Shown: piece after piece, positions 6,068-47,374 of the stretch
How positions within the stretch are numbered: position 1 is the stretch's first letter
Layout of the letters: each line of letters opens with the position of its first letter
From: an uncultured Gammaproteobacteria bacterium
Lineage (GTDB): Bacteria > Patescibacteriota > Patescibacteriia > UBA2196 > GWA2-42-15
NCBI GenBank assembly: GCA_964573135.1
Contig: CAZNIO010000001.1
Coordinates: 28,612 to 92,611 of the forward strand
Length of the DNA stretch: 64,000 nucleotides
Reading direction: 5' to 3'
Made by a program: the position numbers and the translations under genes
The notes under the pieces: generated by a model
Databases searched by the model: none
Told to the model about the DNA's origin: nothing
What the model saw: only the letters and a program-made list of their open reading frames with translations

Positions 6068-6646
6068 TCATAATCTAAATAAACTTTTAAAACGCGTTAA
6101 AAAATTGTCCTTACTCAAAGGCTCTTTAATGAACTCAATTTCTATTCTATTAAATTCAATTTTCTCATTCATCTCATCTAACCCAGCAGATGAGATCAAA
6201 AATCTCATACGGCTATTATCCAGCCCAATATATGCCAAATCATATTCTGTTGTACCCATCATCCATCCATTATCCTCTTTTGTATATTCAATATCTTGCA
6301 ACAGCCATTTCCATTGGTTGTTATTAAACCTAGGGCCAATTTTAAATAAAACCTCTTCATTTTTCCTATACCACACCCTTAACTTAGCTTTTGAAAAACT
6401 CTGTGGTAAACGCACATCAAAATACACCGGATCAATCACCATTTCCTGGCTACATTCTCCCCTGTTCTTTTCTATCTCAAGCACTCTTCCCATCGGCGAA
6501 AACTTAGACACAAATGGATCTTCCTTGCAAAAATCATAATCCACTTTCAAAATTCCCTTAGGGCTAATATCTTTATAGACTAAACATCCTAGGGTTATAA
6601 TAGGGATTAAAATTAAAATTATTCGAATGTATTTATAATACTTCAT
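6068..6646 (-). CDS. Hypothetical membrane-anchored protein
   Basis: 192 aa with one N-terminal TM segment. Overlaps the upstream GT39-like gene by 4 nt (ATGA), so the two are probably translationally coupled. Confidence 0.45.
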   Translation of the reverse strand: MKYYKYIRIILILIPIITLGCLVYKDISPKGILKVDYDFCKEDPFVSKFSPMGRVLEIEKNRGECSQEMVIDPVYFDVRLPQSFSKAKLRVWYRKNEEVLFKIGPRFNNNQWKWLLQDIEYTKEDNGWMMGTTEYDLAYIGLDNSRMRFLISSAGLDEMNEKIEFNRIEIEFIKEPLSKDNFLTRFKSLFRL

Positions 6647-8286
6647 TTCAATTCAATAATATATATCCAATCACTTTTAAATACTTTCGCTCCTCGAACT
6701 ATCTTCATGCCCCTTGGCTCAAAATCTCTTTTAGATATAAAATCAACAATATCTTCCCCTGCAAAAGTATAGTAGTAGACATCCCGTAACTCCACCATGC
6801 GTCGTAAAGCCTCATAATCCTCGTCCACCGCTAACGCCGTAATTAATTTTTTCCTATCAGGAAAAAATATTTTATCAGCCTGCTTATACATCACAACCAC
6901 ATCCCCCTCTCGAGTAATCTCATTAACTAAATAAGACTTTGCTCTAGTCTCATCCAAATTACGCAATAGGAATAAACTTTCATCAGTTTTGCGTATAACT
7001 AAATTTAAGGTGGGCATACTTAATACCGCTATAAGCATGCCAGCCACTATCACCCTGTAAACCCCATAATATTTCAGTTTATCCCAAATCAATACCCTGC
7101 TTATCATATACACCAAGGTAGCTAAAAATGGCAGACACAACATATATATAGGTAAGAAGTAGCGTAAATACGAAGTGCCCAGAGATAAAGTATTTTGATC
7201 AATACGGTCAACTAGCCCCCAAGAACCATAGAATACTAATAAATATGCCATCAATACCAAGAAAAATGCAACATAAGTTATCCTTTTCTTATAATCAATT
7301 AAAATTAATTTTTTAGGTAATAAAATAAAAAGAAAGCCTCCAAGTATTGTCGGCAATGACCAATATGGCAAGAACTGATATAAATAATTAAAACCATTTA
7401 CTAAAATTGATTTTAAATCAAAACCAAACGGTGTAATTAAAATCCGAAATAATAACCCATTACTTATCATCTCCCCAACTCCACCTTCGGGAATTATCGC
7501 CCCATAACCAGCTGATATCACAGCACCATACAATATCTGATTACTGTACATCAACATTAAAGCTGGGATGTATAACCCACATAAAAACAAAATAAATCCA
7601 GGCCAATAAATTTTTTTAAAATTAAGAACAAACACGAAAAGAACGCTCAAGGCTAGCCATACAATTTCAGAAGTTCGAGTAACCACAGCCAGACCAATTA
7701 AAAACCCAGATAAGGCATAAACACCCAACTTAAACTTACCTCGATCCATCGCCCACAAAAGTAAATACACGCCAATTAAAAATAAACTTAAAAACAATAT
7801 ATTATGATACAGCCCTCGAGCGCTATAATATAGCCAAGGAGGTAGAAAAGATAACAGCACGGCAGAAATTAAAGCAATCTCCTTTCTCCCAAAAATTTGT
7901 TTTATTAATAAATAAAAAAAGATAATTCCCAAAACCCCAAATAAGGGAGTTAAATACGGAACTATCCATAAACCAAAAACTTTAGCTAAAAATCCATAAA
8001 TAAATATCATGCCCAAAAAACTACCTGGCACTATTTTACCCTCAACTGTGTTCAAACTACGTGCATGTACCAAGTTATTACCCACTCCATTTAATTCCTC
8101 AAAGTAATACAAACTTTCACCAGCAGCCATCCTCTCTATCCAAAAATAGTTGGCTGTTTCATCAGGCGAAGAAAACTTTGGATTGGGCTCTGCGCTAAGC
8201 AAATTAAAATTTGAGTAAATACAAAAAAAGACTACACAAAAAACTAACAAAAACAATATTTCTTTGTTTCTTTTAAGAAAATTCAT
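6643..8286 (-). CDS. GT39/GT83-like polytopic glycosyltransferase (PMT/ArnT-type, dolichyl/undecaprenyl-phosphate-sugar dependent)
   Basis: 547 aa. Many TM helices in the N-terminal two thirds, then a soluble C-terminal domain. This is the typical PMT/ArnT topology. Assignment by architecture only. Confidence 0.5.
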   Translation of the reverse strand: MNFLKRNKEILFLLVFCVVFFCIYSNFNLLSAEPNPKFSSPDETANYFWIERMAAGESLYYFEELNGVGNNLVHARSLNTVEGKIVPGSFLGMIFIYGFLAKVFGLWIVPYLTPLFGVLGIIFFYLLIKQIFGRKEIALISAVLLSFLPPWLYYSARGLYHNILFLSLFLIGVYLLLWAMDRGKFKLGVYALSGFLIGLAVVTRTSEIVWLALSVLFVFVLNFKKIYWPGFILFLCGLYIPALMLMYSNQILYGAVISAGYGAIIPEGGVGEMISNGLLFRILITPFGFDLKSILVNGFNYLYQFLPYWSLPTILGGFLFILLPKKLILIDYKKRITYVAFFLVLMAYLLVFYGSWGLVDRIDQNTLSLGTSYLRYFLPIYMLCLPFLATLVYMISRVLIWDKLKYYGVYRVIVAGMLIAVLSMPTLNLVIRKTDESLFLLRNLDETRAKSYLVNEITREGDVVVMYKQADKIFFPDRKKLITALAVDEDYEALRRMVELRDVYYYTFAGEDIVDFISKRDFEPRGMKIVRGAKVFKSDWIYIIELK

Positions 8287-9274: not shown

Positions 9275-9721
9275 TTAACGCTTAGACCACTGTGGGGCAC
9301 GTCTAGCTCGTTTTAATCCGGGTTTCTTTCTTTCTTTTGATCTTGGGTCTCTTGTCAAAAAGCCTTCTGCGCGCAAAACTTTTTTAAATCCTTCATCTGA
9401 TTTAAGCAATGCTCTTGAAATACCTAAGCGGCATGCCTCAGATTGTGATCTTTGCCCACTACCTACAACCTTAATCCACACATCAAAATTACCTTCTTTG
9501 CCAACTACTTTAAAAGGTTCTTCTAAATTTAACTGCCAAGTAAAATATGGAAAAAATTCCTTATAATCCCTATCATTAATAACCACTTGACCTGAACCTT
9601 TGGCATATATTCTAACTCTTGCAGAAGCAGTCTTTCTTCGACCCACTGCATAAATATATTTACCAGAAAACTTTACTGGCTTATCTTTAGATTCTTCTTT
9701 TTTAACTTTTTCTTCTGCCAT
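9275..9721 (-). CDS. rpsI: 30S ribosomal protein S9
   Basis: C-terminus ...RRAPQWSKR and a GGGxxxQ-type core (VVGSGQRSQSEACRLGISRAL). Confidence 0.9.
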   Translation of the reverse strand: MAEEKVKKEESKDKPVKFSGKYIYAVGRRKTASARVRIYAKGSGQVVINDRDYKEFFPYFTWQLNLEEPFKVVGKEGNFDVWIKVVGSGQRSQSEACRLGISRALLKSDEGFKKVLRAEGFLTRDPRSKERKKPGLKRARRAPQWSKR

Positions 9722-10099: not shown

Positions 10100-10450
10100 T
10101 TAAACAAATTCAATAGCACACATTCGAGCTCCATCTCCTTTACGCTCTCCAATTTTAATGATACGCAAATAACCGCCCTTTCTCTCCTTATACTTGGGGC
10201 CAATCACTTCTAGCATTTTATCCACTGCTCCTTTGGTCATCAAACGCTTCATTAATTCACGTCTAGAATGCAACGAATTAACCTTGGCTCGAGTTACAAG
10301 CTTTTCTACTTTAGGTCTTAAAAATTTAGCTTTAGCTTCAGTTGTTTTAATTTTCTCATGTAATACTAAAGACGTAGCTAAATTTTTAACTAAAGCCTTT
10401 CTTTGCTTATAATTCCTATCTAATGTTTTTTTAGTACTTCTGTGTCGCAT
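10100..10450 (-). CDS. rplQ: 50S ribosomal protein L17
   Basis: MRHRSTKKTLDRNYKQRKAL N-terminus and the L17 fold length (116 aa). Confidence 0.9.
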   Translation of the reverse strand: MRHRSTKKTLDRNYKQRKALVKNLATSLVLHEKIKTTEAKAKFLRPKVEKLVTRAKVNSLHSRRELMKRLMTKGAVDKMLEVIGPKYKERKGGYLRIIKIGERKGDGARMCAIEFV

Positions 10451-10453
10451 AAA

Positions 10454-11308
10454 TTAAATATCTTCTTTTTTGGGTCGACCCTTCTTTTTCTTTGGTTCTT
10501 CCTCATTGTCTTCTTTCTCCTTTTCTTTATCAACCTCTTCTGTTTTTTCTTCTTCTTCCTTTTCTTCATCATCTACTACTGTTTCTTCTTGAGTCTCTTC
10601 TCCAGCCCCTTTATTTTGTAAAAAATTAACTTGATCTGATAAAATACCTACAGCTTCATCAAATGCTTCTTCTGGAGTTACTGAACCATCGGTTTCAACC
10701 ATCAAAATCAGTTTATCCCAGTTGGTCATTTCACCAACACGCACCCTGTCCACTTCGGCTGATACTTGAGTTATTGGCGTGAATATTGCATCCACTGCCA
10801 TATGTCCAATTGGCAATTTTTCTCCACTAAAACCCTCAACTGGTAAATATCCCCTGCCCTTTTCAACTGTAAACTCAACATCAAAATCTGCTGCCTCATC
10901 AGTTAAAGTGGCAATTACCATATCTTTATTAACTAAACTCACCTGTGAAGGTGCTTCAATATCACCTACTGTTACCTTACCTTCACCCGTCTTGTGTAAT
11001 TTCAATGCCAAAGGTTCGTCATGTGTGGCAGTTGCTAGTGGATCTACCTTAACCTTAATCTGTTTAATATTTAACATCACATCAACCATATCTTCCTTAA
11101 CATGCGGCAAACTGGAAAATTCATGATCAGTTCCCTTTATCTTAGCTGTAGTAATAGCTGATCCAGTAATTGAGGACAACAATACGCGCCGTAACATATT
11201 ACCAATAGTAATACCAAAACCTGGATACAAAGGCTCAACAATAAATTCACCCTTGTTGTCACTCTCAGCTTTATATTCAAATTTTTGTGGGACGGGGATC
11301 ATCTCCAT
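10454..11308 (-). CDS. rpoA: DNA-directed RNA polymerase alpha subunit. It has the N-terminal domain only; the alpha-CTD is replaced by an acidic tail plus an AT-hook.
   Basis: The alpha-NTD motifs (PLYPGFGITIGNMLRRVLLSSI...) are present. The last ~55 aa are E/K/D-rich and end KKKKGRPKKEDI. No alpha-CTD helix-hairpin-helix region is present. Confidence 0.85.
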   Translation of the reverse strand: MEMIPVPQKFEYKAESDNKGEFIVEPLYPGFGITIGNMLRRVLLSSITGSAITTAKIKGTDHEFSSLPHVKEDMVDVMLNIKQIKVKVDPLATATHDEPLALKLHKTGEGKVTVGDIEAPSQVSLVNKDMVIATLTDEAADFDVEFTVEKGRGYLPVEGFSGEKLPIGHMAVDAIFTPITQVSAEVDRVRVGEMTNWDKLILMVETDGSVTPEEAFDEAVGILSDQVNFLQNKGAGEETQEETVVDDEEKEEEEKTEEVDKEKEKEDNEEEPKKKKGRPKKEDI

Positions 11309-11331: not shown

Positions 11332-11961
11332 TTATTTTGAATAATACTCAACAATAAGTCTAGTATCAATTCCTGGATCAAAATCCTTCTCTTGCGGATC
11401 ACTCACCATTGTCACGCCTTGTTCTTCAGGGTCATAACTCAACCACTCAGGAGTACTCTCTGGCTTTATACTTTCAAAAACGCCATCAAATGCAACTGAT
11501 TTTTTACTCTTTTCCTTAACAGTAATCATATCTTTTTCTTTCAACCCGTATGAAGGAATGTTCACTTTTCTACCATTTATCATAAAATGTGCATGATTGA
11601 TCAATTGGCGAGCCTTGCCACGAGATACTGCTAAACCTGATTTATATACTACATTATCAAATCTTTTCTCAAGTAAGGTTAAAAAATTAACTGATACATT
11701 GCCTTTCATAGCTAAGGCTTTTTTAAAATAATTTCTAAATTGTTTCTCATCTACACAATAGCTTTTTTTAGCGCGCTGTTTAGCTTGCAATTGCTTGCCA
11801 TATTCCGTAACTTTCACAAATCCCTTTTGGCCATGCAGACCAGGAGGATAATTCTTCTTAACCATAGCGCATTTAGCGCCAAAACATCGCTCACCCTTAA
11901 GGAAAAGCTTTTCACCTACACGTCTGCATTGTCTACATTTTGGATCTAAATTTCTACCCAT
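11332..11961 (-). CDS. rpsD: 30S ribosomal protein S4
   Basis: MGRNLDPKCRQCRRVGEKLFLKGERC N-terminus (zinc-ribbon type S4). Confidence 0.9.
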   Translation of the reverse strand: MGRNLDPKCRQCRRVGEKLFLKGERCFGAKCAMVKKNYPPGLHGQKGFVKVTEYGKQLQAKQRAKKSYCVDEKQFRNYFKKALAMKGNVSVNFLTLLEKRFDNVVYKSGLAVSRGKARQLINHAHFMINGRKVNIPSYGLKEKDMITVKEKSKKSVAFDGVFESIKPESTPEWLSYDPEEQGVTMVSDPQEKDFDPGIDTRLIVEYYSK

Positions 11962-13256: not shown

Positions 13257-13372
13257 AAATTATGACTATCTAATATAGTCAATTTATCTTCAAATATTAA
13301 ACTATTATTCAATATATTCAAATTTAACAATATATGTATAATTATACAGAAATACAGATTTCTGTCAATTGT

Positions 13373-14587: not shown

Positions 14588-14713
14588 ATAACTACGGTTA
14601 TTATATCAATTTTAGCTTTAATGTCAAAAATTGGGGAATAATAAAAGAGATTCAATATTTACATGAATCTCTTTTATTTCGTAATTTTTTTGATCGCTTT
14701 TTTGTTTTAAAAA

Positions 14714-16201
14714 TTATTTCATCAATATCATTTTTTTTGTTTGAGCCAAACCGTTGGCATTCAGACAGTAAAAATACACACCAGAATACTGACCAACTGC
14801 ATTCCATTGAACTTTGTAAATACCAGCTACTTTTACACCGTCAACAAGTACCGCAACTTCCTGTCCAATTGAGTTATAAATTTTGAGAGAAACCTTTCCG
14901 GATTGCGGTACATAAAATTCAATGGCTGTTACCGGATTAAATGGATTTGGATAATTTTGCAGCAACGAAAATCCATTGGGTTGTCCGAGCATTTTTTCTT
15001 CATTAACATCAGTAGCACTTCCAGGCCATTCTGGCGGAGATGGTGGTAAAAACCCTGGATCACCAGGAGGCATATAATCTCCTGCCAAAACATAGCCCTC
15101 ATCATGTTTTATTTTCGTTAGCCCCAAAGACGGCTTTGTAAAAAGCAAAACGCATGAGTGAGACGCGTAAAACCACAATCCATGACCAGGTTTTGTTATA
15201 TCATCAGGACCAATCATTGTATAACCCTGATACCCATACTCAAACAAATATATTTGAAAGTCAGGTTCTCCGGGTGGCGGCAATATAAATAAAGATTGAC
15301 TCAATTCTGCAGAAAAACCAGGATAAGCTACCATGTGCCACTCTCCCTTTTCAAGGGAAACACTATCACTTTCGCTACCCAAAAGAATCAAGGCGCTGTT
15401 TCGCACATCTCCCTGCCAAAATGCCAACTCGCCATAATTCGCCATCCAAAACACATTATCTACTCTACTCGCATTGCGTGTAGGATTCCCAAACAGAATA
15501 TCAGATTGGCAATATTGACTATTTCCGCTTACATCCTCGTAAAAAACATATTCGCCAGCCATATTCGCAAAAACTTGTGTAGCAATAATATTTTCCGGTA
15601 AATATGTTGGAATACCCACCATGGTCCATCCATAACCATAGTATGACCTGAACCCTTCACGAATGGTGATTGTACAAATATGCAACATGGTAAAATTAGG
15701 CGACAACCAAACCGTAGAATTAGCCTGATCTCCAATAAAATATACCATGTTGTCACCAGTGTTTATCTCCACTCTTAATGTATCAAAATTTTGCCAATTA
15801 TTAGTCAAATCAAGCATAATTCTATACTCAATCTCAGTATTGGCCGGCTGGACAAATGGACTAAAATAAATCCTTCCGCTAACAAAATTAATACTGTCTA
15901 CGGTAGACACCACGCCGTACTGAGTGGCAATCCGCATACTATTAAGATCATCGCCAGTGGCAACCAATGAATTCAATTCATACGACAACACAGGGGACCA
16001 GCCCACACTACTAAATTCACTACTACTATCCGCCATTGTGTTTAGTTTAAAATAATTGAGCAGAGAAGTCTCTCCGGGCAAGTTAGTGTGATCGGTCCAC
16101 TCCTCAAAATCAATCCATGCCTCCTGCGCAAAAACCGGCATAGACAACAAAAAAACAACGAGCAACAAAACTACAATTTTATGTACCATAAAATCCTCCA
16201 A
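14714..16201 (-). CDS. Secreted protein with a type-A T9SS C-terminal sorting domain (Por_Secre_tail)
   Basis: N-terminal signal peptide (…LSMPVFAQEA). The C-terminal ~80 aa are LLQNYPNPFNPVTAIEFYVPQSGKVSLKIYNSIGQEVAVL...GVYFYCLNANGLAQTKKMILMK, the hallmark NYPNPFNP...TKKMxLLK pattern of type-A T9SS CTDs. Terminator-like hairpins flank it on both sides. Confidence 0.7.
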   Translation of the reverse strand: MEDFMVHKIVVLLLVVFLLSMPVFAQEAWIDFEEWTDHTNLPGETSLLNYFKLNTMADSSSEFSSVGWSPVLSYELNSLVATGDDLNSMRIATQYGVVSTVDSINFVSGRIYFSPFVQPANTEIEYRIMLDLTNNWQNFDTLRVEINTGDNMVYFIGDQANSTVWLSPNFTMLHICTITIREGFRSYYGYGWTMVGIPTYLPENIIATQVFANMAGEYVFYEDVSGNSQYCQSDILFGNPTRNASRVDNVFWMANYGELAFWQGDVRNSALILLGSESDSVSLEKGEWHMVAYPGFSAELSQSLFILPPPGEPDFQIYLFEYGYQGYTMIGPDDITKPGHGLWFYASHSCVLLFTKPSLGLTKIKHDEGYVLAGDYMPPGDPGFLPPSPPEWPGSATDVNEEKMLGQPNGFSLLQNYPNPFNPVTAIEFYVPQSGKVSLKIYNSIGQEVAVLVDGVKVAGIYKVQWNAVGQYSGVYFYCLNANGLAQTKKMILMK

Positions 16202-17345: not shown

Positions 17346-19109
17346 TTATTCTAAAATTGCCTTTATTCTTCTCACTCCTGCTGAGCTTGACTCTTCCTTT
17401 AAAATCTTAAATGTTCCAAGTTCTGCAGTATTCTTAACATGCGGCCCCCCGCAAATTTCCTTAGAATAATCCCCCATAGAATATACCTTTACCTTTTCTC
17501 CATATTTATCTCCAAATATTCCCACTGCTCCTTGCTTCTTAGCTTCTTCCACACTCATCTCATCTTGTTTAATATCCAATCCTTTTTTAATCTTTGTATT
17601 AACAATATCTTCCACCTTCTTCTTCTCTTCATCACTCAATTTTTCACCATGTGAAAAATCAAAGCGTAGTCTTTCCCCGGTAATATTAGAGCCTCTCTGT
17701 TCCACACAATCCCCCAAAACTTCTCTCAAGGCAGCTAGCAGTAAATGCGTAGCTGTATGATATTTTATAGTATCCCCGCTTTCACCGCCTAATCCACCTT
17801 TAAATTTACCTGCCGTTGCACTGCGTGATAAATCCTGATGCTTTTTAAACTCATCTTCAAACCCTTGTTTATCTACCTTAAATCCCTGCTCTTTAGCCAA
17901 TTCTTCCGTTAATTCCCAAGGAAAACCATAAGTTTGGAATAAATCAAATACCAACTTTGAATTAAATTTTTTACCCTTAATTTTCTTTACTTCTTTATTA
18001 AATATTTTTAATCCTTGTTGCAAGGTTTTAGTAAACTTTTCTTCTTCTACTTCAAATAAAGATAATACCCGTTCCTTATTCTCCTCAAGCTCTTCATATA
18101 TCTCGCTCATCATCTCAATTGCCACTTGTGACACTTGGGCAGTAAAATTATCCTTTATACCAATCATTCTACCATGTCTAATAGCTCGACGTACTAATTT
18201 GCGTACCACATAACCCGCATCCACATTTGATGGCTCAATCAAAGCCTTGTCGGCCATGATAAAGGTAGCGGCCCGTACATGGTCAGATATAATTCTCATT
18301 GAGCGCTTTACCTCTTCACTCTCTTCATATTCCTTACCACTCAACTTCTCAATTTTTTTAATTATAGGTAAAAACAAGTCTGTCTTGTAATTATCATCCA
18401 ATCCATTCATAACGGCCAATAATCTTTCAAGCCCTGTACCATTATCAATATTCTTTTGTTTAGCCTCAACATATTTGCCTTTGCCTACTTTTTCATAACT
18501 CATCAGTACATCATTACCAATTTCAACCCATCTTGAATCTTCTGGATCAAATTCATCAGGTACTTTACTCTCATCCATCCAATAATGTGGCTCAGTATCT
18601 GGTCCGCACGGTCCGCCAGTGCCACTCGGCTCCCACCAGTTATCTTCCACATATTTAATCCTCTTTTCATCAATACCAATCTTTTGCCACAACTCATATG
18701 ACTCTTCATCCTTTTCCGCATCCTTATTACCCCCAAATACCGTAAAGGCTAATTTCTCTTTTTCTAATCCTAATTCTTTAGTTAAAAACTCATAGGTCAT
18801 TTGAATAGCTTCTTTTTTAAAATATTCTCCCAGCGACCAATGCCCCAGCATTTCAAAAAAAGTATGATGTGTCTTGTCCCCCACTTCATCAATGTCCCCT
18901 GTTCTAACGCACTTTTGTGCGTTAACTAATCTGACGCCACCAGGATGTTTTTCCCCGCACAAAAACGGCACCAAGGGCTGCATGCCTGCTGTTATAAAAA
19001 GAGTGGAAGGATCATTTTCCGGCAAAACAGAAGCTGACGGGATAATAGTATGACCCCGACTTGCAAAAAAATCTATATACTTTTGTCGCAATTCTTTAGA
19101 ACTAATCAT
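17346..19109 (-). CDS. alaS: Alanine--tRNA ligase, short form
   Basis: LRQKYIDFFASRGHTIIPSASVLPENDPSTLFITAGMQP aminoacylation-domain N-terminus. Editing-domain HTATHLL motif. The track ORF extends to 19169. The start is placed at the internal Met (MISSKELRQ…) to avoid a 52-nt overlap with the upstream toxin gene. At 588-607 aa it lacks the C-Ala domain. Confidence 0.8.
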   Translation of the reverse strand: MISSKELRQKYIDFFASRGHTIIPSASVLPENDPSTLFITAGMQPLVPFLCGEKHPGGVRLVNAQKCVRTGDIDEVGDKTHHTFFEMLGHWSLGEYFKKEAIQMTYEFLTKELGLEKEKLAFTVFGGNKDAEKDEESYELWQKIGIDEKRIKYVEDNWWEPSGTGGPCGPDTEPHYWMDESKVPDEFDPEDSRWVEIGNDVLMSYEKVGKGKYVEAKQKNIDNGTGLERLLAVMNGLDDNYKTDLFLPIIKKIEKLSGKEYEESEEVKRSMRIISDHVRAATFIMADKALIEPSNVDAGYVVRKLVRRAIRHGRMIGIKDNFTAQVSQVAIEMMSEIYEELEENKERVLSLFEVEEEKFTKTLQQGLKIFNKEVKKIKGKKFNSKLVFDLFQTYGFPWELTEELAKEQGFKVDKQGFEDEFKKHQDLSRSATAGKFKGGLGGESGDTIKYHTATHLLLAALREVLGDCVEQRGSNITGERLRFDFSHGEKLSDEEKKKVEDIVNTKIKKGLDIKQDEMSVEEAKKQGAVGIFGDKYGEKVKVYSMGDYSKEICGGPHVKNTAELGTFKILKEESSSAGVRRIKAILE

Positions 19110-19116
19110 AAAATAT

Positions 19117-19389
19117 TTACTTATAGACCTTATGGTCTCCGACATCCAAAAAGAGCACTTGATTATCATTTATAAATACAAACATAACTCGCAAACGCGG
19201 GGTAAGCGAAAACGACCACCGGTCTCTTAATTTTCCCTTAAGTTTATGTATCCTTAAAATTGGGTCAAAACAATTCACCCTAAAAATTTTTTCCTTCTTC
19301 CGGGCTATAACTCTCTCTATATTACTTAATTTCTTATACGACCTGACAAAATGAGATGCATAATCTATTTTTTTAATAGCTTTTTGCAT
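19117..19389 (-). CDS. Type II toxin, RelE/ParE superfamily
   Basis: 90 aa, basic. It lies 4 nt downstream of a Phd/YefM-like antitoxin on the same strand. The C-terminal region resembles RelE/ParE-family toxins (motif-level only). Confidence 0.55.
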   Translation of the reverse strand: MQKAIKKIDYASHFVRSYKKLSNIERVIARKKEKIFRVNCFDPILRIHKLKGKLRDRWSFSLTPRLRVMFVFINDNQVLFLDVGDHKVYK

Positions 19390-24602: not shown

Positions 24603-25517
24603 ATGTATAACTTCTGGTTTAAATTCAAAAAACCAATTATAGCGCTAGCTCCCATGGCCGGATACACAGATTCGGCTTTTCGTTTACTTTGCCACCAAAT
24701 GGGGGCTGACATAGTTTATTCTGAGATGATATCAGTTGACGCTATCTGCTATAACAATCAAAAAACCCTTAAGATGTTTAAATACCACCCCAAAGAAAAA
24801 CCCATTGTTTTTCAACTGTTTGGCAATAAGGTAGATAAATTTAAACAAGCCATTAGCCAGCTCCCAGTTAAAGGTAAAAATATTGGCATTGACATAAACT
24901 CAGGCTGTCCAGCGCATAAAGTGTACAAAACCGGATCAGGCGCAGCCCTTATGAACGAACTTGATAAAGCATATAATATAATACAAACAGTCTGCCAAAA
25001 TACCGATCTACCAATCTCAGTTAAAATCAGGACTAAAGTAAAAGACACAACAGCAATTGATTTTATAAAAAAAATAAAAGATCTACCAATTTCTGCCATC
25101 ATGATTCACGGCAGAACCCTTAATCAAGGATTTGCGGGAGAGATAGATTATAAAATTATACACCAAGCAAAACAATTACTGCCAAACAAAATAGTATTAG
25201 CTAATGGTGGAATCAATAGCCAAAAGGATATAGCTGAAGTATTAGAAAAAACCCAAGCCGATGGCTTGGGTGTTGCCCGCGGAGCTTTAGGCAACCCATG
25301 GATATTTAAGAAAAAATCCAACCCCACTAAGAGAAATAGAAAAAAAATAATAATAAAACACGCCAAACTTTTCCTCAAAGATAACTACAGTCTAACGCCT
25401 CTGCGCCAACATCTCGTCCACTATATCAAAGGACAAAAAAATGCGTCAGCTATACGCCAACGCCTAATCCACGTCGAAAATCTAAATGAGCTTAAAAAAA
25501 TATTAAAAGATTTCTAA
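24603..25517 (+). CDS. dus: tRNA-dihydrouridine synthase
   Basis: IALAPMAGYTDSAFRLLCHQMGADIVYSEM N-terminus is typical of Dus flavoenzymes. Confidence 0.8.
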   Translation: MYNFWFKFKKPIIALAPMAGYTDSAFRLLCHQMGADIVYSEMISVDAICYNNQKTLKMFKYHPKEKPIVFQLFGNKVDKFKQAISQLPVKGKNIGIDINSGCPAHKVYKTGSGAALMNELDKAYNIIQTVCQNTDLPISVKIRTKVKDTTAIDFIKKIKDLPISAIMIHGRTLNQGFAGEIDYKIIHQAKQLLPNKIVLANGGINSQKDIAEVLEKTQADGLGVARGALGNPWIFKKKSNPTKRNRKKIIIKHAKLFLKDNYSLTPLRQHLVHYIKGQKNASAIRQRLIHVENLNELKKILKDF

Positions 25518-26128
25518 TATGACGGCCTGCCAGGTCGTCTTCTTCTCTTTCTGGTCAAAAATATTCCCACTAGAGGTAAAAATACCCATACAAAACGTCC
25601 CACCTCGCCCGCAAACATGCTCATCGCTCTTTCAGAAAATTGTGTTAAAAAATTTATCGGCAAAACACTTAAAATAACCGTTGCCAAAAGCCCAGTATAC
25701 AAAACACCATTGATAACAGCCATAACCCAACGTATCAAAAAATTATACTTATAATACGCCTTCATCAAATGAGTAGCAGATAATACAATGGCTATAATTA
25801 TTATACTAACTATAACTAAAACTATCTTAAACCACCATTCAAAAACAAAAGGAGCTCCCCCGCCAATAACCTCATAAGGAAAAAATAGAGCTGACAGCCA
25901 AGCTACGTAAGTACTAATAAAGGCAATCAGTACATTATGAGCATCCAATAAAAAACCAAATAAAAATATAACGATAATAGCGATCAAAAAAATCATCATA
26001 TCTCCCCAATATCCCTGACTGATCAGCTGCTCAGATACCTTGCCTGTGGCTTCTAAGCCTGCCTGACCTATGCTATCAGGAATTTTCAAACTAAAGGCAA
26101 ATAAATTTAAAAACATAGACAAAAACAA
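25514..26128 (-). CDS. Hypothetical polytopic membrane protein
   Basis: 204 aa with ~5 TM segments and a basic C-terminus (RKRRRRPGRPSY). Confidence 0.4.
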   Translation of the reverse strand: MFLSMFLNLFAFSLKIPDSIGQAGLEATGKVSEQLISQGYWGDMMIFLIAIIVIFLFGFLLDAHNVLIAFISTYVAWLSALFFPYEVIGGGAPFVFEWWFKIVLVIVSIIIIAIVLSATHLMKAYYKYNFLIRWVMAVINGVLYTGLLATVILSVLPINFLTQFSERAMSMFAGEVGRFVWVFLPLVGIFLTRKRRRRPGRPSY

Positions 26129-35060: not shown

Positions 35061-35108
35061 ATAATTTTATATTACCACTTTACCGCCCAAAATCAAGCAA
35101 AACAAAAA

Positions 35109-35474
35109 CCCAAGCAGGTTATAAGCCGGGTTCTGTCATATCCCGGCACAAAGCCGGGATCGGATGGTCATCTATCTAAACGAGCTACCATTTGTGCTCT
35201 TGCACCAGGCAGGGTTTACCGCGAGACTACGTCACCGTAATCAAGTGTGAGCTCTTACCTCACATTTTCACCCTTACCTCAAAAGAGGCGGTTTACTTTC
35301 TGTTGCACTTTCCCTGGGTTTTGAGATTGTCCACAAAAAATTTCTCGAGAGAACTTCTTAATGTATCTCTTATACCCGGTCACTTTCACGACTGCCATGA
35401 CTCCCGAAAAACGGGAGGGTGCCCGGACTTTCCTATCTAGCTAAAAGCTAGATTAACCATCGTACCTACTTGAG
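35109..35474 (-). ncRNA. rnpB: RNase P RNA, bacterial type A
   Basis: Read on the minus strand: GGAAAGUCCGGGCACCCUCCC (P4 5' strand), GGUAAGGGUGAAAAUGUGAGGUAAGAGCUCAC (P10/11/12 consensus) and UGACAGAACCCGGCUUA (P4 3' strand). P1 closes with CUCAAGUAGGU / AACCUGCUUGGG, including GU wobbles. There is a P3 hairpin AUCUAGC-UUUU-GCUAGAU. Track ORFs 34979..35179(+) and 35192..35440(+) lie inside it and are spurious. Confidence 0.85.
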
Positions 35475-43846: not shown

Positions 43847-46800
43847 TTATTCAAACAACCCCTTAATATCATCCCATGTCAATTTGGTAAACAAATCCTT
43901 ACTCTCACCAACAAGACGATCAAAAAGAAGTTTCTTTTTTTCTTGAAGTTTTACAATCTTTTCTTCAATGGTTCCTTTGGTTATCAAGCGATAAACATTT
44001 ACCGAATTCTTTTGGCCAATTCGGTGAGTACGATCTATGGCTTGATTTTCAACACTTGGATTCCACCAGGGATCAAAAATAATTACAGTGTCAGCTGAAG
44101 TTAAATTTATGCCTGTTCCACCAGCTTTTAAACTAATTAAAAAAACCTTTAGGTTGTTATTTTCATTAAAATCATCAATCAACTCCTGCCTGTTCCTTGT
44201 TTTACCAGATAAATAGTGATAATTAATCTTCTTTTTATCCAATTCCTTACCCAAAATATCAAGCATTTTCGTGAACTGGCTAAATACTAAAACTTTTCTT
44301 TTGTTTTCAATAATTTCGTCAATTAGCTCCAAAAACATATTTAATTTTGATGATTCGTATTTTGTATAATCATCATCTTTTAACAACAGAACAGGATGAT
44401 TGCAAACCTGTCTTAATTTTGTCAATCCAGCTAAAATATGAATTCGTGATTTATTAAAGCCTTTTGTTTTTACAGTTTCAAAAATTTCTGATTTTACATT
44501 TGCTAAAATTTCCTGATAAAGAATATTCTGTCCTTTGCCTAAATGACAGTGGCTCATTTGCTCCACTTTTGGCGGAAGTTCTTTTAGCACCTCGGATTTT
44601 GTACGGCGCAACATAAAACATTCAATTTTTTTACGCAAATTATCAAGAGCAAGCTTGTTATTGTGTTGCATAATCGGTTTTTCGAACTTCTTGGCAAACA
44701 ACCGATATGATCCCAAAAATCCCGGCATTAAAAAATCAAAAATAGACCAAATTTCTGATACGCTATTCTCAAGCGGCGTGCCAGTCAAAGCCAAACGATA
44801 ATCAGCATTAACTTTTTTTACTACTTGCGCATTCTTTGTGATATGATTTTTAATAAACTGTGCCTCATCTAAAACACAATAATTAAATTTAATTTTTTGT
44901 TTTTCATAAATTGCACTATCTTTTTTTATGGTTGCATAACCCGTAATGATTAAATCATAATTTTTTATTTTTTTTATTATCTTCTCTCGCTCTAATGGAT
45001 TTCCATCAATCACAATCGTTTTTAATTTTGGAACAAACTTTTCTGCTTCATTCTGCCAATTATAAAGCAATGTTTTTGGGCAAATGACAATTGACGGATT
45101 GCCCTTAACTTTTTCTTTTTCCAATAAAACCAAGGCCTGCAAAGTTTTACCAAGACCCATATCATCAGCCAAAATTCCGGCAAATCTATATTTGCGCAAA
45201 AAATAAAGCCAGTCAACTCCCTCCTTCTGATAATCACGCATAATTCTGTCAAGCTTTGCGGGCAACTTAATTTTTTTAACCGACTTGCCGTTTTGTGCTT
45301 CTTTTATAAAATTATTAAAACTTTTCTGTACCTTGGCATTATAATATTCAGATTTTGTAAAAACATTTTCAAGTTCCGGTGCATGGTATAATTTACCTTC
45401 AAATCCACCCTTTTCCCGTGCGTAAAAACTTTCAAGCATTAAAACAAACCTCTCCAGCTCTTCTAAATTTGTAATTTTAAGCATCCGTCCGTCATCCATT
45501 TTTATAAATTCTTTTTTATCCTCAACATATTTTCTCAAGTCTTCCAGCCTAATTTTTTCGTCCCCACAATAGCAACTAACATCAAAACCAAGCCAATCAT
45601 TTTCAGCATTCAAGTCCACATCAAAATCAGCCTTAAAATTTGCTACAGTAAAACTAAATTTATCACCAATGAATTCAATTTTATAATTTTTCTTATTAGC
45701 GAATTTTTCCAAATTGTCCCAATGCTTTGTAAAATATTTGAATATCTCTTTTTCTCCTTCCAGCTTACACTCAACTCTTTTTTTAAATCCATAATCTTTG
45801 TGAAAAAAATAAAAATGCTTATAAATCTCTATTTCTTTTTTCTCATCCACCAATCCATAACTAATATTCTTTTTACTTATGCCAATAACATATTTATCCA
45901 ATCCAGTCCTGCTAAAAGTATCCATACCCATATTGCGGTAACGGTTGACTGACTGACCCACATTTATTTTTTTAAACCCATAATCAACGCCTGCCTGAAT
46001 TTCCAACAAATCTTTTTTACTATCATAATCCACCACTACACAAGGTTTTGCTTCTGTAAATTCTTCAATTTCAAAATTTTGCGTTAAATCAGTTTGAAAA
46101 TCAAAACATTTATGACAATCTTCAATAATTTTATTTAATTCAAGAATCTCTTCCTGCTCAAGCATTGTTTTAAAATATCTTTCATTTCCAAAATGATAAC
46201 CCGTTCTAATTAAATCTATGCGTGACAATATTTTAACCAATGGATTAGTCAACTGATAAAAACCGATAGATTTGTCTTCAATCTTTATAAAGCCATCGCT
46301 GTAAAATAAAAATACCAATGGATCAACTTTTTTGTACTTGTCATCAAGTTCAAAAACAAATTCCTTCTTCAGTCTTTCGTTAAACTCATATTTTACATCC
46401 TCCAATTTTAACAAAATTTTAATTTTGTTGTCATCGGCTACCGGAGAAAATGTCAACAAATTATCAGCAGTGTGCCTGTTCCAATATATTTTCAACTTTG
46501 AATTTCGCAAAATATTAAATAATTTTTTATAATCAATATCGCCGTGATAAACAAAAGATAATTTTCGTAAAAACTTAAACAATTCTTTATGTGGCCCATC
46601 CAAATCATATTGCCTGAGCATCACGCTGGGATCCGTCTCGGATCCGCTATTTTTTTTCACTCGAATATCGGAAAGAGTATTTTTCCCATATCCATCTTCT
46701 AAAATAACATAATAGCTATCCGGGTTAAATCGTTTCTTTTTTATTGGGCTACATTGCGATGTCTCTAAACCATTACGAACATCCACCCCTTTGGCGGCCA

Positions 46801-47374
46801 AAGCTTTGATTAATCCATCTACGACCCCGTCAGGCGCATCTCCAATATCAAGCATACTTTTAAATTCATCCAAAAGTTCTTCTTTGGTTCTATTCTGTCT
46901 ATAATCATCTATTTCTTCAAACTCGCCTTCAACAATATCATCATCAAATTTAACTTTTCTCAATACTTTATCTCCTCCGTAATTTTCAGCTTTAACTTGG
47001 CTATTAATCCAATGAATCAAATCATTTCTTATTGTAGCTCTTCTTAAAACAGAATTATCCATAAACTCTATATAAAAATCTATAAACTCCAATCCAACAG
47101 CTGCGATATGCTTGCAAGCGTCGCCATAAGGACAATCACAATCCATTTTTCTAAAACTATTTTTTTTAAAATCAAAAAACAGACTAGTTGAATAATCATC
47201 ACTGCCTGCAACTTCACTGCGAATCTCAATTTCACTGTCAATCTCGGATGGAAAAACTTTTAAACTCAAAACATTGCCTGAATGATAATATCCGACTCCG
47301 CGACTAAATATATGAGATTCAAAATTTAATTTTAAATTGTTTTTTAACGACTTTTCACTAATTATATGAAACAT
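43847..47374 (-). CDS. SNF2-family helicase with an N-terminal SWIM zinc finger
   Basis: SWIM: CDCPYGDACKHIAAVGL. SNF2 ATPase motifs: GLGKT (motif I), DEAQFIKN (motif II), LTGTPLENS, and the helicase-C GGTGINLTSADTVIIFDPWWNP...QAIDRTHRIGQ. 1175 aa. Confidence 0.8.
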   Translation of the reverse strand: MFHIISEKSLKNNLKLNFESHIFSRGVGYYHSGNVLSLKVFPSEIDSEIEIRSEVAGSDDYSTSLFFDFKKNSFRKMDCDCPYGDACKHIAAVGLEFIDFYIEFMDNSVLRRATIRNDLIHWINSQVKAENYGGDKVLRKVKFDDDIVEGEFEEIDDYRQNRTKEELLDEFKSMLDIGDAPDGVVDGLIKALAAKGVDVRNGLETSQCSPIKKKRFNPDSYYVILEDGYGKNTLSDIRVKKNSGSETDPSVMLRQYDLDGPHKELFKFLRKLSFVYHGDIDYKKLFNILRNSKLKIYWNRHTADNLLTFSPVADDNKIKILLKLEDVKYEFNERLKKEFVFELDDKYKKVDPLVFLFYSDGFIKIEDKSIGFYQLTNPLVKILSRIDLIRTGYHFGNERYFKTMLEQEEILELNKIIEDCHKCFDFQTDLTQNFEIEEFTEAKPCVVVDYDSKKDLLEIQAGVDYGFKKINVGQSVNRYRNMGMDTFSRTGLDKYVIGISKKNISYGLVDEKKEIEIYKHFYFFHKDYGFKKRVECKLEGEKEIFKYFTKHWDNLEKFANKKNYKIEFIGDKFSFTVANFKADFDVDLNAENDWLGFDVSCYCGDEKIRLEDLRKYVEDKKEFIKMDDGRMLKITNLEELERFVLMLESFYAREKGGFEGKLYHAPELENVFTKSEYYNAKVQKSFNNFIKEAQNGKSVKKIKLPAKLDRIMRDYQKEGVDWLYFLRKYRFAGILADDMGLGKTLQALVLLEKEKVKGNPSIVICPKTLLYNWQNEAEKFVPKLKTIVIDGNPLEREKIIKKIKNYDLIITGYATIKKDSAIYEKQKIKFNYCVLDEAQFIKNHITKNAQVVKKVNADYRLALTGTPLENSVSEIWSIFDFLMPGFLGSYRLFAKKFEKPIMQHNNKLALDNLRKKIECFMLRRTKSEVLKELPPKVEQMSHCHLGKGQNILYQEILANVKSEIFETVKTKGFNKSRIHILAGLTKLRQVCNHPVLLLKDDDYTKYESSKLNMFLELIDEIIENKRKVLVFSQFTKMLDILGKELDKKKINYHYLSGKTRNRQELIDDFNENNNLKVFLISLKAGGTGINLTSADTVIIFDPWWNPSVENQAIDRTHRIGQKNSVNVYRLITKGTIEEKIVKLQEKKKLLFDRLVGESKDLFTKLTWDDIKGLFE

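What the first reader, a model, noticed from the sequence alone, without database searches (positions are those of the whole stretch)
10454..11308. RNA polymerase alpha subunit lacking the alpha-CTD; it ends in a poly-acidic/lysine tail with an AT-hook-like KKKKGRPKK
The alpha-NTD is intact, but after ~230 aa the protein ends …EETQEETVVDDEEKEEEEKTEEVDKEKEKEDNEEEPKKKKGRPKKEDI. The alpha-CTD normally contacts UP elements and class I activators. Replacing it with an acidic tail plus a GRP AT-hook would imply a different mode of promoter DNA recognition (minor-groove AT binding in a 33%-GC genome) and loss of alpha-CTD-dependent activation.
Basis: seen in the sequence. Interest (0 to 1): 0.5.

Follow-up and report, generated by a model that had tools for sequence, protein, structure and literature searches.

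The report
RNA polymerase alpha with AT-hook tail
This small-genome (Patescibacteria/CPR) bacterium, like about a hundred relatives, makes an RNA polymerase alpha subunit that lacks the usual DNA- and activator-binding end domain. In its place is a floppy acidic tether ending in a short, strongly conserved AT-hook peptide, which probably grips AT-rich DNA.

Summary
ORF 10454-11308 (-) is rpoA in its normal place (rpsM-rpsK-rpsD-rpoA-rplQ). Residues 1-232 are a complete alpha-NTD. There is no alpha-CTD. The last 52 residues are a predicted-disordered tail: a 39-aa acidic linker (net -16), then PKKKKGRPKK, then EDI.

It is not a frameshift. rplQ starts 3 nt after the stop codon. No CTD is encoded in any frame of the 64 kb. 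The identical protein occurs in at least 3 independent metagenomes.

The architecture is shared by many relatives. Of 162 distinct CTD-less relatives, 91 carry RGRP, with consensus E-K-P-K-K-K-R-G-R-P-K-K; shuffled tails give 0.04. All synonymous codons are used at the core, so selection acts on the protein. This window is the only K-for-R variant.

CTD loss is patchy within Patescibacteria. Of 80 species representatives, 32 keep the CTD, 18 have a hook, 23 have a lysine patch and 7 have neither.

The most likely function is minor-groove tethering of polymerase to upstream AT-rich DNA, replacing the CTD's DNA contact but not its activator docking. This is inferred, not shown. CTD loss has been mentioned once in the literature. 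I found no paper describing the AT-hook.

The parts
10454..11308 (-). rpoA coding sequence (284 aa plus stop codon): RNA polymerase alpha subunit without an alpha-CTD
   Evidence: ORF listing and sequence. Pfam PF01193 and PF01000 only. TIGR02027 scores 238.3 bits against a cutoff of 227.8. The identical protein is found on at least 10 contigs from at least 3 samples.
10613..11308 (-). alpha-NTD, residues 1-232: dimerisation domain and beta/beta' assembly platform
   Evidence: AF2 pLDDT is mostly above 90 up to about residue 232, and the last helix is 212-231. The region aligns with solved RpoA NTDs, for example 7ye1_A at E=9.5e-55 over query residues 7-229. The conserved GN.LRRVLLSS motif is present, with R40 and R41 invariant.
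10496..10612 (-). Acidic disordered linker, residues 233-271 (KGAGEETQEETVVDDEEKEEEEKTEEVDKEKEKEDNEEE): 22 D/E, 6 K, net charge -16
   Evidence: Composition. pLDDT is 41-56 with no secondary structure. The sequence is hypervariable among relatives but always acidic.
10466..10495 (-). AT-hook-like motif, residues 272-281: PKKKKGRPKK. The GRP core lies at 10472-10480. The codon AAG (Lys) sits where relatives have Arg.
   Evidence: The consensus in relatives is P-K-K-K-R-G-R-P-K-K, with R, G, R, P present in 91, 92, 92 and 92 of 92 hook-bearing tails. The Pfam AT_hook model matches relatives' tails, at 15.0 bits for P0001 and 25.7 bits for P0115, but not the window's tail.
10457..10465 (-). C-terminal acidic cap E-D-I after the hook. 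The stop codon follows at 10454-10456.
   Evidence: Relatives have a median of 5 residues after GRP, usually K-K then E/D.
10100..10450 (-). rplQ (ribosomal protein L17). It starts 3 nt after the rpoA stop, which leaves no room for a CTD.
   Evidence: PF01196 is called for the same gene on the JGI contig.
11332..11961 (-). rpsD (ribosomal protein S4), immediately upstream of rpoA. With rpsK and rpsM further upstream, this is the canonical alpha-operon context.

Best explanation
Shown: this is the genuine, complete rpoA of a Kuenenbacteria-like Patescibacteria (CPR) bacterium. The protein has a normal alpha-NTD, so it can dimerise and scaffold beta/beta'. It has no folded alpha-CTD. It ends in an intrinsically disordered tail of about 50 aa, made of a roughly 40-aa polyacidic tether, one AT-hook (family consensus PKKKRGRPKK, here PKKKKGRPKK) and a few residues to the C-terminus. 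This architecture is shared by about a hundred distinct relatives and is held by purifying selection on the protein.

Inferred mechanism: each polymerase carries two such tails. [quoted passage not shown] This gives the enzyme an upstream DNA anchor that takes over the UP-element and DNA-tethering role of the alpha-CTD. The acidic tether was inherited from the interdomain linker of CTD-bearing ancestors. It keeps the hook mobile, and it may repel the tail from non-target DNA or mask the hook until DNA competes for it. The activator-docking surface of the alpha-CTD (class I activation) has no replacement, so that mode of regulation is presumably absent.

In this organism the first core Arg is Lys, which probably makes a weaker or less AT-selective hook.
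For: - Gene identity and completeness.
- No CTD in any frame of the window, nor in 508 kb around 48 CTD-less relatives, while the same HMM finds the fused CTD in all 32 CTD-bearing loci at E of 1e-15 to 1e-28.
- Tail predicted disordered, pLDDT 41-56.
- Hook conservation: 91 of 162 distinct CTD-less tails have RGRP against 0.04 expected. Flanks are K at -1 (89/92), K at -2 (85/92), K or R at +1 (84/92) and K at +2 (86/92). The linker is hypervariable, 24-90 aa.
- All synonymous codons are used at R, G, R and P across 16 species, so selection acts on the peptide and not on the DNA.
- The motif fits the literature definition of an AT-hook: a GRP core, K/R flanks, a proximal P, and the Reeves consensus TPKRPRGRPKK (PMC11354804). 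Pfam AT_hook matches relatives' tails.
- CTD-bearing CPR alphas already have an acidic linker, 28% D+E, so the hook sits where the CTD used to be tethered.
- Precedents for RNAP-associated AT-hooks acting upstream of promoters: WhiB7 bound to sigma contacts promoter DNA through an AT-hook (PMC8786299). Myxococcus CarD binds RNAP-beta and carries a disordered acidic segment plus RGRP hooks that bind an AT-rich site upstream of a promoter (PMC4374960).
Against: - No binding experiment has been done, and there are no TSS data.
- A crude comparison of AT content at -36..-59 against regions further upstream of strong consensus promoter-like sites showed no enrichment in hook-bearing loci: 0.687 vs 0.681, n=35.
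- 53 of 162 CTD-less relatives have only a lysine-rich patch. 17 have a purely acidic tail or none, including alphas of 230-231 aa in L029 and L051. An upstream DNA anchor on alpha is therefore dispensable in some lineages.
- The same KKRGRPKK peptide occurs at the N-terminus of ribosomal protein uS9 in two CPR genomes, where the partner would be RNA.
- A single hook binds DNA weakly on its own (PMC11354804).
- The window's K-G-R-P lacks one of the two groove-inserting arginines and gets no Pfam AT_hook match.
Confidence: 0.55

Rival explanations
1. Generic polyampholyte tail. The basic end simply gives non-specific affinity for nucleic acid, either DNA or nascent RNA. That would speed the DNA search or keep the polymerase on the nucleoid, with no UP-element-like sequence or position preference. 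In this view the AT-hook is just one convenient basic peptide among several.
For: - One third of CTD-less relatives use plain K-rich patches such as KKTRKKK, KKKAAKKKK or KKKGRTKK in the same position.
- No AT enrichment was seen upstream of -35 boxes.
- Hook presence is unrelated to GC content, which spans 33-55%.
- The same peptide is found on ribosomal protein uS9.
- A 2026 preprint argues that flexibly tethered alpha-CTDs accelerate DNA association by a general physical mechanism (10.64898/2026.07.21.739884, abstract seen).
Against: Charge alone does not explain the near-absolute conservation of R-G-R-P across sequences whose NTDs are only 44-60% identical (91, 92, 92 and 92 of 92 hook-bearing tails), nor the conserved proline before the lysines. 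G and P contribute no charge.
Confidence: 0.27
2. The acidic stretch is the functional part. It would act like the acidic disordered tail of the Firmicutes delta subunit, or like sigma region 1.1, mimicking nucleic acid to clear DNA or RNA from the polymerase and sharpen promoter selectivity. The basic hook would be its intramolecular partner or regulator.
For: - Acidity is the most universal tail feature. D+E makes up 29-38% of the tail in all classes against 14% in the NTD, and the 17 tails with no basic patch are all net negative, median -10.
- Delta has a disordered C-terminal region with net charge -47 and acts in RNAP recycling (PMC7749165).
Against: CTD-bearing CPR alphas have similarly acidic linkers, so acidity predates CTD loss and may only be a tether property. 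The tail attaches at the alpha-NTD, on the face of the polymerase away from the main channel (from established RNAP structures; not tested here). The charge is much lower than in delta, -16 here.
Confidence: 0.1
3. The alpha-CTD still exists, either as a separate gene elsewhere in the genome that works in trans, or because the gene here is truncated by a frameshift or assembly error.
For: Only 64 kb of this genome, plus about 10 kb around each of 48 relatives, could be searched.
Against: - rplQ begins 3 nt after the stop codon.
- No CTD-like segment appears in six frames of the window. The best hit has E=0.027, lies antisense to a membrane-protein gene and is a chance match.
- Nothing was found in 508 kb of relatives' flanks.
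- The identical protein occurs in at least 3 independent samples.
- More than 160 relatives have the same architecture.
Confidence: 0.03

Closest known systems
Canonical bacterial RNA polymerase alpha subunit (RpoA: NTD, flexible linker, alpha-CTD PF03118)
   Same: The NTD is orthologous and sits at the same operon position. A flexible linker leaves the NTD at the same point, about residue 232. [quoted passage not shown]
   Different: There is no folded helix-hairpin-helix CTD, and therefore no 261, 265 or 287 determinants for activators. The DNA reader is a roughly 10-aa peptide. [quoted passage not shown]
Myxococcus xanthus CarD (RNAP-beta-binding domain plus HMGA-like tail)
   Same: Both attach to the polymerase and carry an intrinsically disordered tail made of an acidic segment followed by RGRP AT-hook(s). 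In CarD the tail binds an AT-rich site upstream of the promoter and boosts activity, and other basic disordered domains can substitute for it (PMC4374960). That parallels the variation between hooks and K-patches seen here.
   Different: CarD is an accessory factor with four hooks, is restricted to myxobacteria and needs CarG. Here a single hook is fused to a core subunit, giving two per enzyme, and it replaces a domain rather than adding one.
Mycobacterial WhiB7 (sigma-bound activator with a C-terminal AT-hook)
   Same: An AT-hook is held on the holoenzyme and contacts promoter DNA. [quoted passage not shown]
   Different: WhiB7 is an inducible Fe-S regulator bound to sigma region 4 and acts at specific promoters. 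Here the hook is constitutive on every polymerase molecule.
CTD-less alpha subunits of extreme endosymbionts (Hodgkinia, Tremblaya) and Euglena plastids; archaeal and eukaryotic Rpb3/RpoD
   Same: The alpha-like subunit is reduced to the assembly platform (PMC8321222). That paper also says in one sentence that loss of the alpha-CTD occurs in Parcubacteria.
   Different: Those cases are described as simple erosion. Here the lost domain is replaced by a conserved, selected peptide motif. The cited source for Parcubacteria (PMC4508563) does not discuss it in its main text.
Delta subunit (RpoE) of Firmicutes RNA polymerase
   Same: Both are long, acidic, disordered tails attached to the polymerase (PMC7749165).
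   Different: Delta is a separate subunit with its own folded NTD, has a much higher negative charge and has no AT-hook. There is no homology.

Membership tests
Bacterial RpoA (TIGR02027 / PF01193 + PF01000 + PF03118) | Alpha-NTD: Rpb3/Rpb11-type dimerisation domain with the RpoA insert domain | tested here: met
   PF01193 at E=3.3e-20 and PF01000 at E=1.2e-25. TIGR02027 scores 238.3 bits against a cutoff of 227.8. PDB RpoA NTDs match at E down to 9.5e-55. The AF2 model is confident for residues 1-232.
Bacterial RpoA (TIGR02027 / PF01193 + PF01000 + PF03118) | Position in the alpha operon (rpsM-rpsK-rpsD-rpoA-rplQ) | tested here: met
   S13, S11 and S4 lie upstream, and L17, L13 and S9 downstream.
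Bacterial RpoA (TIGR02027 / PF01193 + PF01000 + PF03118) | C-terminal helix-hairpin-helix domain (alpha-CTD, PF03118) | tested here: not met
   No PF03118 hit at E<=1. Custom CTD HMMs, one of them built from 31 CPR CTDs, find nothing in the protein or in six frames of the window.
AT-hook (Pfam PF02178; literature definition in PMC11354804) | GRP core flanked by K/R residues, with a proximal proline | tested here: met
   The motif is P-K-K-K-K-G-R-P-K-K. The definition is quoted.
AT-hook (Pfam PF02178; literature definition in PMC11354804) | R-G-R core, whose two arginines enter the minor groove | tested here: not met
   The window has K-G-R, with codon AAG. 91 of 92 hook-bearing relatives have R-G-R. 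The Lys is real, because the identical protein is found in at least 3 samples.
AT-hook (Pfam PF02178; literature definition in PMC11354804) | Score against the Pfam AT_hook model (gathering cutoff 17.4 bits) | tested here: inconclusive
   The window tail gives no reported match. The closest relative, P0001, scores 15.0 bits (E=0.022). The two-hook relative P0115 scores 25.7 bits and passes. A single 13-position motif rarely reaches the whole-protein cutoff.
AT-hook (Pfam PF02178; literature definition in PMC11354804) | Lies in an intrinsically disordered segment | tested here: met
   pLDDT is 41-56 with no secondary structure for residues 233-284.
AT-hook (Pfam PF02178; literature definition in PMC11354804) | [quoted passage not shown] | not testable with these tools
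   This needs EMSA, NMR or footprinting. The indirect promoter-context check was inconclusive.
HMGA-like domain as in CarD | Acidic segment followed by repeated RGRP hooks in a disordered domain | tested here: not met
   The acidic segment is present, but there is only one hook. Only 1 of 162 relatives (P0115) has two. The tail may work like such a domain, but it is not a member.
RNAP delta subunit (RpoE) | Separate subunit with its own folded N-terminal domain ahead of the acidic disordered region | tested here: not met
   The acidic tail here is fused to the alpha-NTD, which matches only the two RpoA NTD families. It is not a separate subunit with a delta-type N-terminal domain (delta organisation quoted from PMC7749165).

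The most novel reading that the evidence does not exclude
A large radiation within Patescibacteria would have rebuilt the upstream-promoter interface of bacterial RNA polymerase. By submitter names it includes Kuenen-, Falkow-, Veblen- and Kerfeldbacteria and their allies. The folded alpha-CTD was exchanged for a eukaryote-style AT-hook on the pre-existing acidic tether. Every polymerase then carries two minor-groove readers and no class-I activator docking site. Sister lineages went further, to plain lysine patches or to bare alpha-NTDs. That would be a natural series showing how dispensable and how replaceable the alpha-CTD is. It would imply that promoter architecture and activation logic in these organisms differ systematically from the E. 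coli and Bacillus paradigm.
Probability: 0.4. Interest if true: 0.72.

Novelty: new variant of a known kind. Interest (0 to 1): 0.6.

Why it matters
The alpha-CTD is the textbook target of UP elements and class I activators, and a recent survey calls it ubiquitous in bacteria (PMC12531629). These data show a broad set of ultrasmall bacteria that lack it and have put a conserved AT-hook in its place. One review calls that motif 'rare in bacteria' (PMC8786299).

If the hook reads upstream AT-rich DNA, this is a minimal natural replacement of a DNA-binding domain by a 10-residue peptide on a core transcription subunit. It would change how promoters and regulators should be predicted in Patescibacteria genomes. 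It would explain why PF03118 fails as a universal marker in that group. It would also supply a compact module for engineering polymerase-promoter affinity.

The graded series in the group runs from CTD to hook to lysine patch to nothing. It gives a comparative handle on what the alpha C-terminus is really needed for.

Tried and rejected
- Frameshift or truncation: rejected.
- Stand-alone CTD in the window: the best six-frame hit, 6617-6769 (+), has E=0.027, lies antisense to the membrane-protein gene 6643-8286 (-), and matches only a GxKS turn. It is a chance match.
- 'CTD loss is CPR-wide': rejected. 32 of 80 species representatives keep the CTD.
- Link between the hook and low GC: rejected. 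Median locus GC is 0.43 for hook, 0.46 for basic and 0.41 for CTD, with overlapping ranges.
- UP-like AT enrichment upstream of consensus promoters: inconclusive. Promoter calls are only consensus matches and the numbers are small.
- A neighbour-joining tree of NTDs places CTD-bearing sequences in at least two blocks, with tail-only sequences nested among them. This suggests several losses, but the tree is too crude to count events.
- Literature: no paper in the library combines AT-hook with Candidate Phyla Radiation, Patescibacteria or rpoA in this sense. Two reviews, one of alpha-like subunits (PMC13374769) and one of Patescibacteria biology (PMC11665869), do not mention it. The one statement of CTD loss in Parcubacteria (PMC8321222) cites a paper whose main text lacks it.
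- Submitter labels such as 'uncultured Gammaproteobacteria', 'Bacillota' and 'Bdellovibrionales' on some loci (L007, L048, L054 and others) were not trusted as evidence for hooks outside Patescibacteria. Their RpoA NTDs are 41-51% identical to the query, like those of the loci named as Patescibacteria.

Full report
**1. The observation**

It lies in the canonical alpha-operon context. infA, rpsM, rpsK and rpsD are upstream, and rplQ, rplM and rpsI are downstream.

Pfam finds only the two alpha-NTD families, PF01193 and PF01000, and no PF03118 even at E<=1. NCBIfam rpoA models align only up to about position 250 of 300-340, and TIGR02027 still passes its cutoff. Solved RpoA chains align to residues about 7-232 and no further. 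An AlphaFold2 model built on a 42-sequence alignment is confident for residues 1-232. It gives pLDDT 41-56 and no secondary structure for residues 233-284.

The tail consists of a 39-residue linker with 22 acidic and 6 basic residues, then P-K-K-K-K-G-R-P-K-K, then E-D-I.

**2. Not an artefact**

rplQ starts 3 nt after the rpoA stop, so there is no space for a CTD. I built an alpha-CTD HMM from E. coli, B. subtilis and two CTD-bearing hits. I then built a second one from 31 CTDs of Patescibacteria, and searched all six frames.

- Nothing in the 64-kb window reaches significance. The best hit has E=0.027 and lies antisense to a membrane-protein gene.
- The second HMM recovers the fused CTD in all 32 CTD-bearing relatives at E of 1e-15 to 1e-28.
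- It finds nothing in 508 kb around 48 CTD-less relatives.
- The exact 284-residue protein, including the Lys before GRP, is recorded on at least 10 contigs from at least three samples: JGI 3300005915, JGI 3300005916 and ENA ERZ27315495.

**3. Relatives**

Of the 120 best database hits, 118 are 248-337 residues long with the NTD domains only. Where named, they are Kuenenbacteria, Komeilibacteria or 'Patescibacteria group'. The nearest hit is 86% identical. Named Kuenenbacteria are 53-64% identical, and the NCBI lineage is Patescibacteria group > Parcubacteria group > Kueneniibacteriota.

Reading the C-termini shows a striking pattern. The linkers are hypervariable and acidic, and they end in an almost invariant ...P-K-K-K-R-G-R-P-K-K-(E/D)....

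- Over 162 distinct CTD-less sequences, 91 contain RGRP in the tail. Composition-preserving shuffles give 0.04 on average and never more than 1.
- Within the 92 hook-bearing tails, G, the second R and P are invariant. The first R is present in 91. The two preceding positions are K in 85 and 89. The two following positions are K or R in 84 and K in 86.
- The linker before the basic run is 24-90 residues, median 39.5, with median net charge -9.
- The hook sits a median of 5 residues from the C-terminus.
- Across 16 species, the codons for R, G, R and P use every synonymous alternative: AGA, AGG, CGC, CGG, CGA and CGT for Arg, GGN for Gly, and CCN for Pro. The conservation is therefore at the protein level.
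- The window's protein is the single exception at the first Arg (AAG, Lys).

**4. Distribution**

A scan of one genome per species returned 80 loci. Their state is as follows.

| State of RpoA C-terminus | Loci | Submitter names |
|---|---|---|
| Fused alpha-CTD retained | 32 | Saccharibacteria/Saccharimonadia, Doudna-, Moran-, Wildermuth- and Portnoybacteria, some Paceibacterota |
| RGRP hook | 18 | Kuenen-, Veblen-, Falkow- and Kerfeldbacteria, BM507, several 'Patescibacteria group' |
| Lysine-rich patch in the same place (e.g. KKTRKKK, KKKGRTKK, KKRGRSKK) | 23 | various |
| No basic element | 7 | includes alphas of 230-231 residues that stop right after the NTD (L029, L051) |

No CTD-bearing protein also has a hook.

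A rough neighbour-joining tree places CTD-bearing sequences in at least two blocks, with tail-only sequences among them. This hints at repeated loss but cannot be relied on. The loss is therefore common but patchy, not 'CPR-wide'.

Hook presence does not track GC content. Locus GC is 33-55% for hook-bearing loci, and the window is 35.5%.

**5. What was exchanged**

In CTD-bearing Patescibacteria alphas, the interdomain linker is already acidic, with 28% D+E in the first 25 residues after the NTD. The simplest reading is that the acidic tether is ancestral. The folded CTD of about 65 residues at its end was replaced by a peptide of about 10 residues.

That placement is the main argument that the hook substitutes for the DNA-contact role of the CTD. 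Two other facts support it. The alpha-CTD reads the minor groove of A/T-rich UP elements (established knowledge). [quoted passage not shown]

**6. Is it an AT-hook?**

By the literature definition, yes. That definition is a GRP core, K/R flanks and a proximal Pro, with the Reeves consensus TPKRPRGRPKK. The family consensus PKKKRGRPKK is a near-perfect match.

The Pfam AT_hook model scores the closest relative's tail at 15.0 bits and a two-hook relative at 25.7 bits, against a cutoff of 17.4. The window's K-G-R-P tail gets no reported match. The family therefore carries a canonical hook, and this organism carries a slightly degenerate one.

**7. Mechanism: most likely, and inferred**

Two hooks per enzyme, on long flexible acidic tethers, anchor the polymerase to AT-rich DNA upstream of the -35 element. 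The activator-docking role of the alpha-CTD is not replaced.

There are precedents for AT-hooks held on bacterial polymerase. WhiB7 on sigma contacts promoter DNA through an AT-hook (PMC8786299). Myxococcus CarD binds RNAP-beta and has a disordered 'acidic segment followed by RGRP AT-hook repeats'. That tail binds an AT-rich site upstream of a promoter and maximises activity. It can also be swapped for other basic disordered domains (PMC4374960), which mirrors the hook and K-patch alternation seen here.

**8. Evidence against, and rivals**

- I could not show any promoter signature. At strong consensus promoter-like sites, AT content at -36..-59 equals that further upstream in hook-bearing loci (0.687 vs 0.681, n=35). 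CTD-bearing loci show a small excess (0.673 vs 0.635, n=46). The test is weak.
- The window does have textbook sigma-70 promoters, for example 12/12 matches at 14627->14600 and 13368->13341. Their upstream flanks are T-rich, but that is unremarkable in this genome.
- The K-patch, acidic-only and tail-less relatives argue that sequence-specific reading is not essential.
- The same KKRGRPKK peptide appears at the N-terminus of ribosomal protein uS9 in two genomes, so it may be a general nucleic-acid-binding module.
- A delta-subunit-like role for the acidic stretch is possible, since delta has a disordered tail with net charge -47 (PMC7749165). It is weakened by the acidic linkers of CTD-bearing relatives.
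- A CTD encoded elsewhere in the genome is not excluded genome-wide. Nothing supports it.

**9. Novelty**

One paper on endosymbiont polymerases states in a single sentence that alpha-CTD loss 'is also present in Parcubacteria' (PMC8321222). The paper it cites does not discuss this in its main text. A 2025 study calls the alpha-CTD ubiquitous in Bacteria (PMC12531629). A 2026 review of alpha-like subunits and a 2024 Patescibacteria perspective do not mention the loss.

No paper in the searchable library links AT-hooks with CPR, Patescibacteria or rpoA in this sense. The library is incomplete, so prior description elsewhere cannot be excluded.

I rate the finding as a new variant of a known kind. 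It is a core alpha subunit whose CTD is replaced by a conserved AT-hook.

**10. Verdict**

DNA binding, AT specificity and promoter role remain inferred. The GC argument and the 'acidic tail as replacement' detail need correcting. Interest is 0.6.

Noticed in passing
L007 7643-8179 (+) and L059 7500-7988 (+): Ribosomal protein uS9 in two Patescibacteria genomes has an N-terminal extension carrying the same hook peptide (…EKPKKRGRPRKT… and …TTKKRGRPKKTK…). The window's own uS9 (9275-9721, -) has a K/E-rich extension without GRP. The peptide may be a reusable nucleic-acid-binding module in this group.
   Followed up: partly
window 25514-26128 (-): A 204-aa ORF with no Pfam match ends in KRRRRPGRPSY*. 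This is the only other basic-flanked GRP in the six-frame translation of the window.
   Followed up: partly
L029 6001-6693 and L051 6001-6696 (+): Some relatives encode alpha subunits of only 230-231 residues that stop right after the NTD, with no linker or tail at all.
   Followed up: partly
window 14714-16201 (-): A 495-aa protein has a C-terminal Por_Secre_tail (type IX secretion sorting domain) match at 29 bits against a cutoff of 27. This is unexpected in a Patescibacteria genome.
   Followed up: no
window 1-62000: GC skew is very strong and uniform, about -0.2 to -0.4 on the + strand. Almost all long ORFs lie on the - strand, so the coding strand is markedly G-over-C rich across the whole window.
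   Followed up: no
window 17346-19169 (-): Alanyl-tRNA synthetase is only 607 aa. It has the catalytic and SAD domains and looks shorter than is usual for this enzyme.
   Followed up: no
window 14600-14627 and 13341-13368 (- strand): Two perfect 12/12 sigma-70 consensus promoters (TTGACA-16-TATAAT) lie upstream of the 404-aa ORF and of infA. The first also has a TG extension and a T-rich upstream flank.
   Followed up: partly
window 49483-54063 (-) and 43847-47374 (-): One ORF encodes a 1526-aa protein with VWA, SdrD_B, lamin-tail and SpaA-like domains, probably a surface protein. The other encodes a 1175-aa SNF2-family helicase with a SWIM zinc finger.
   Followed up: no
window 35106-35473 (-): Bacterial class A RNase P RNA is present (165 bits). 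No tRNA gene is found anywhere in the 64 kb.
   Followed up: no
L026 (Kerfeldbacteria) and L028 RpoA tails: There are near-hook variants, KKKRGRSKK (Pro to Ser) and KKKGRTKK. They look like intermediates between the canonical hook and plain lysine patches.
   Followed up: no
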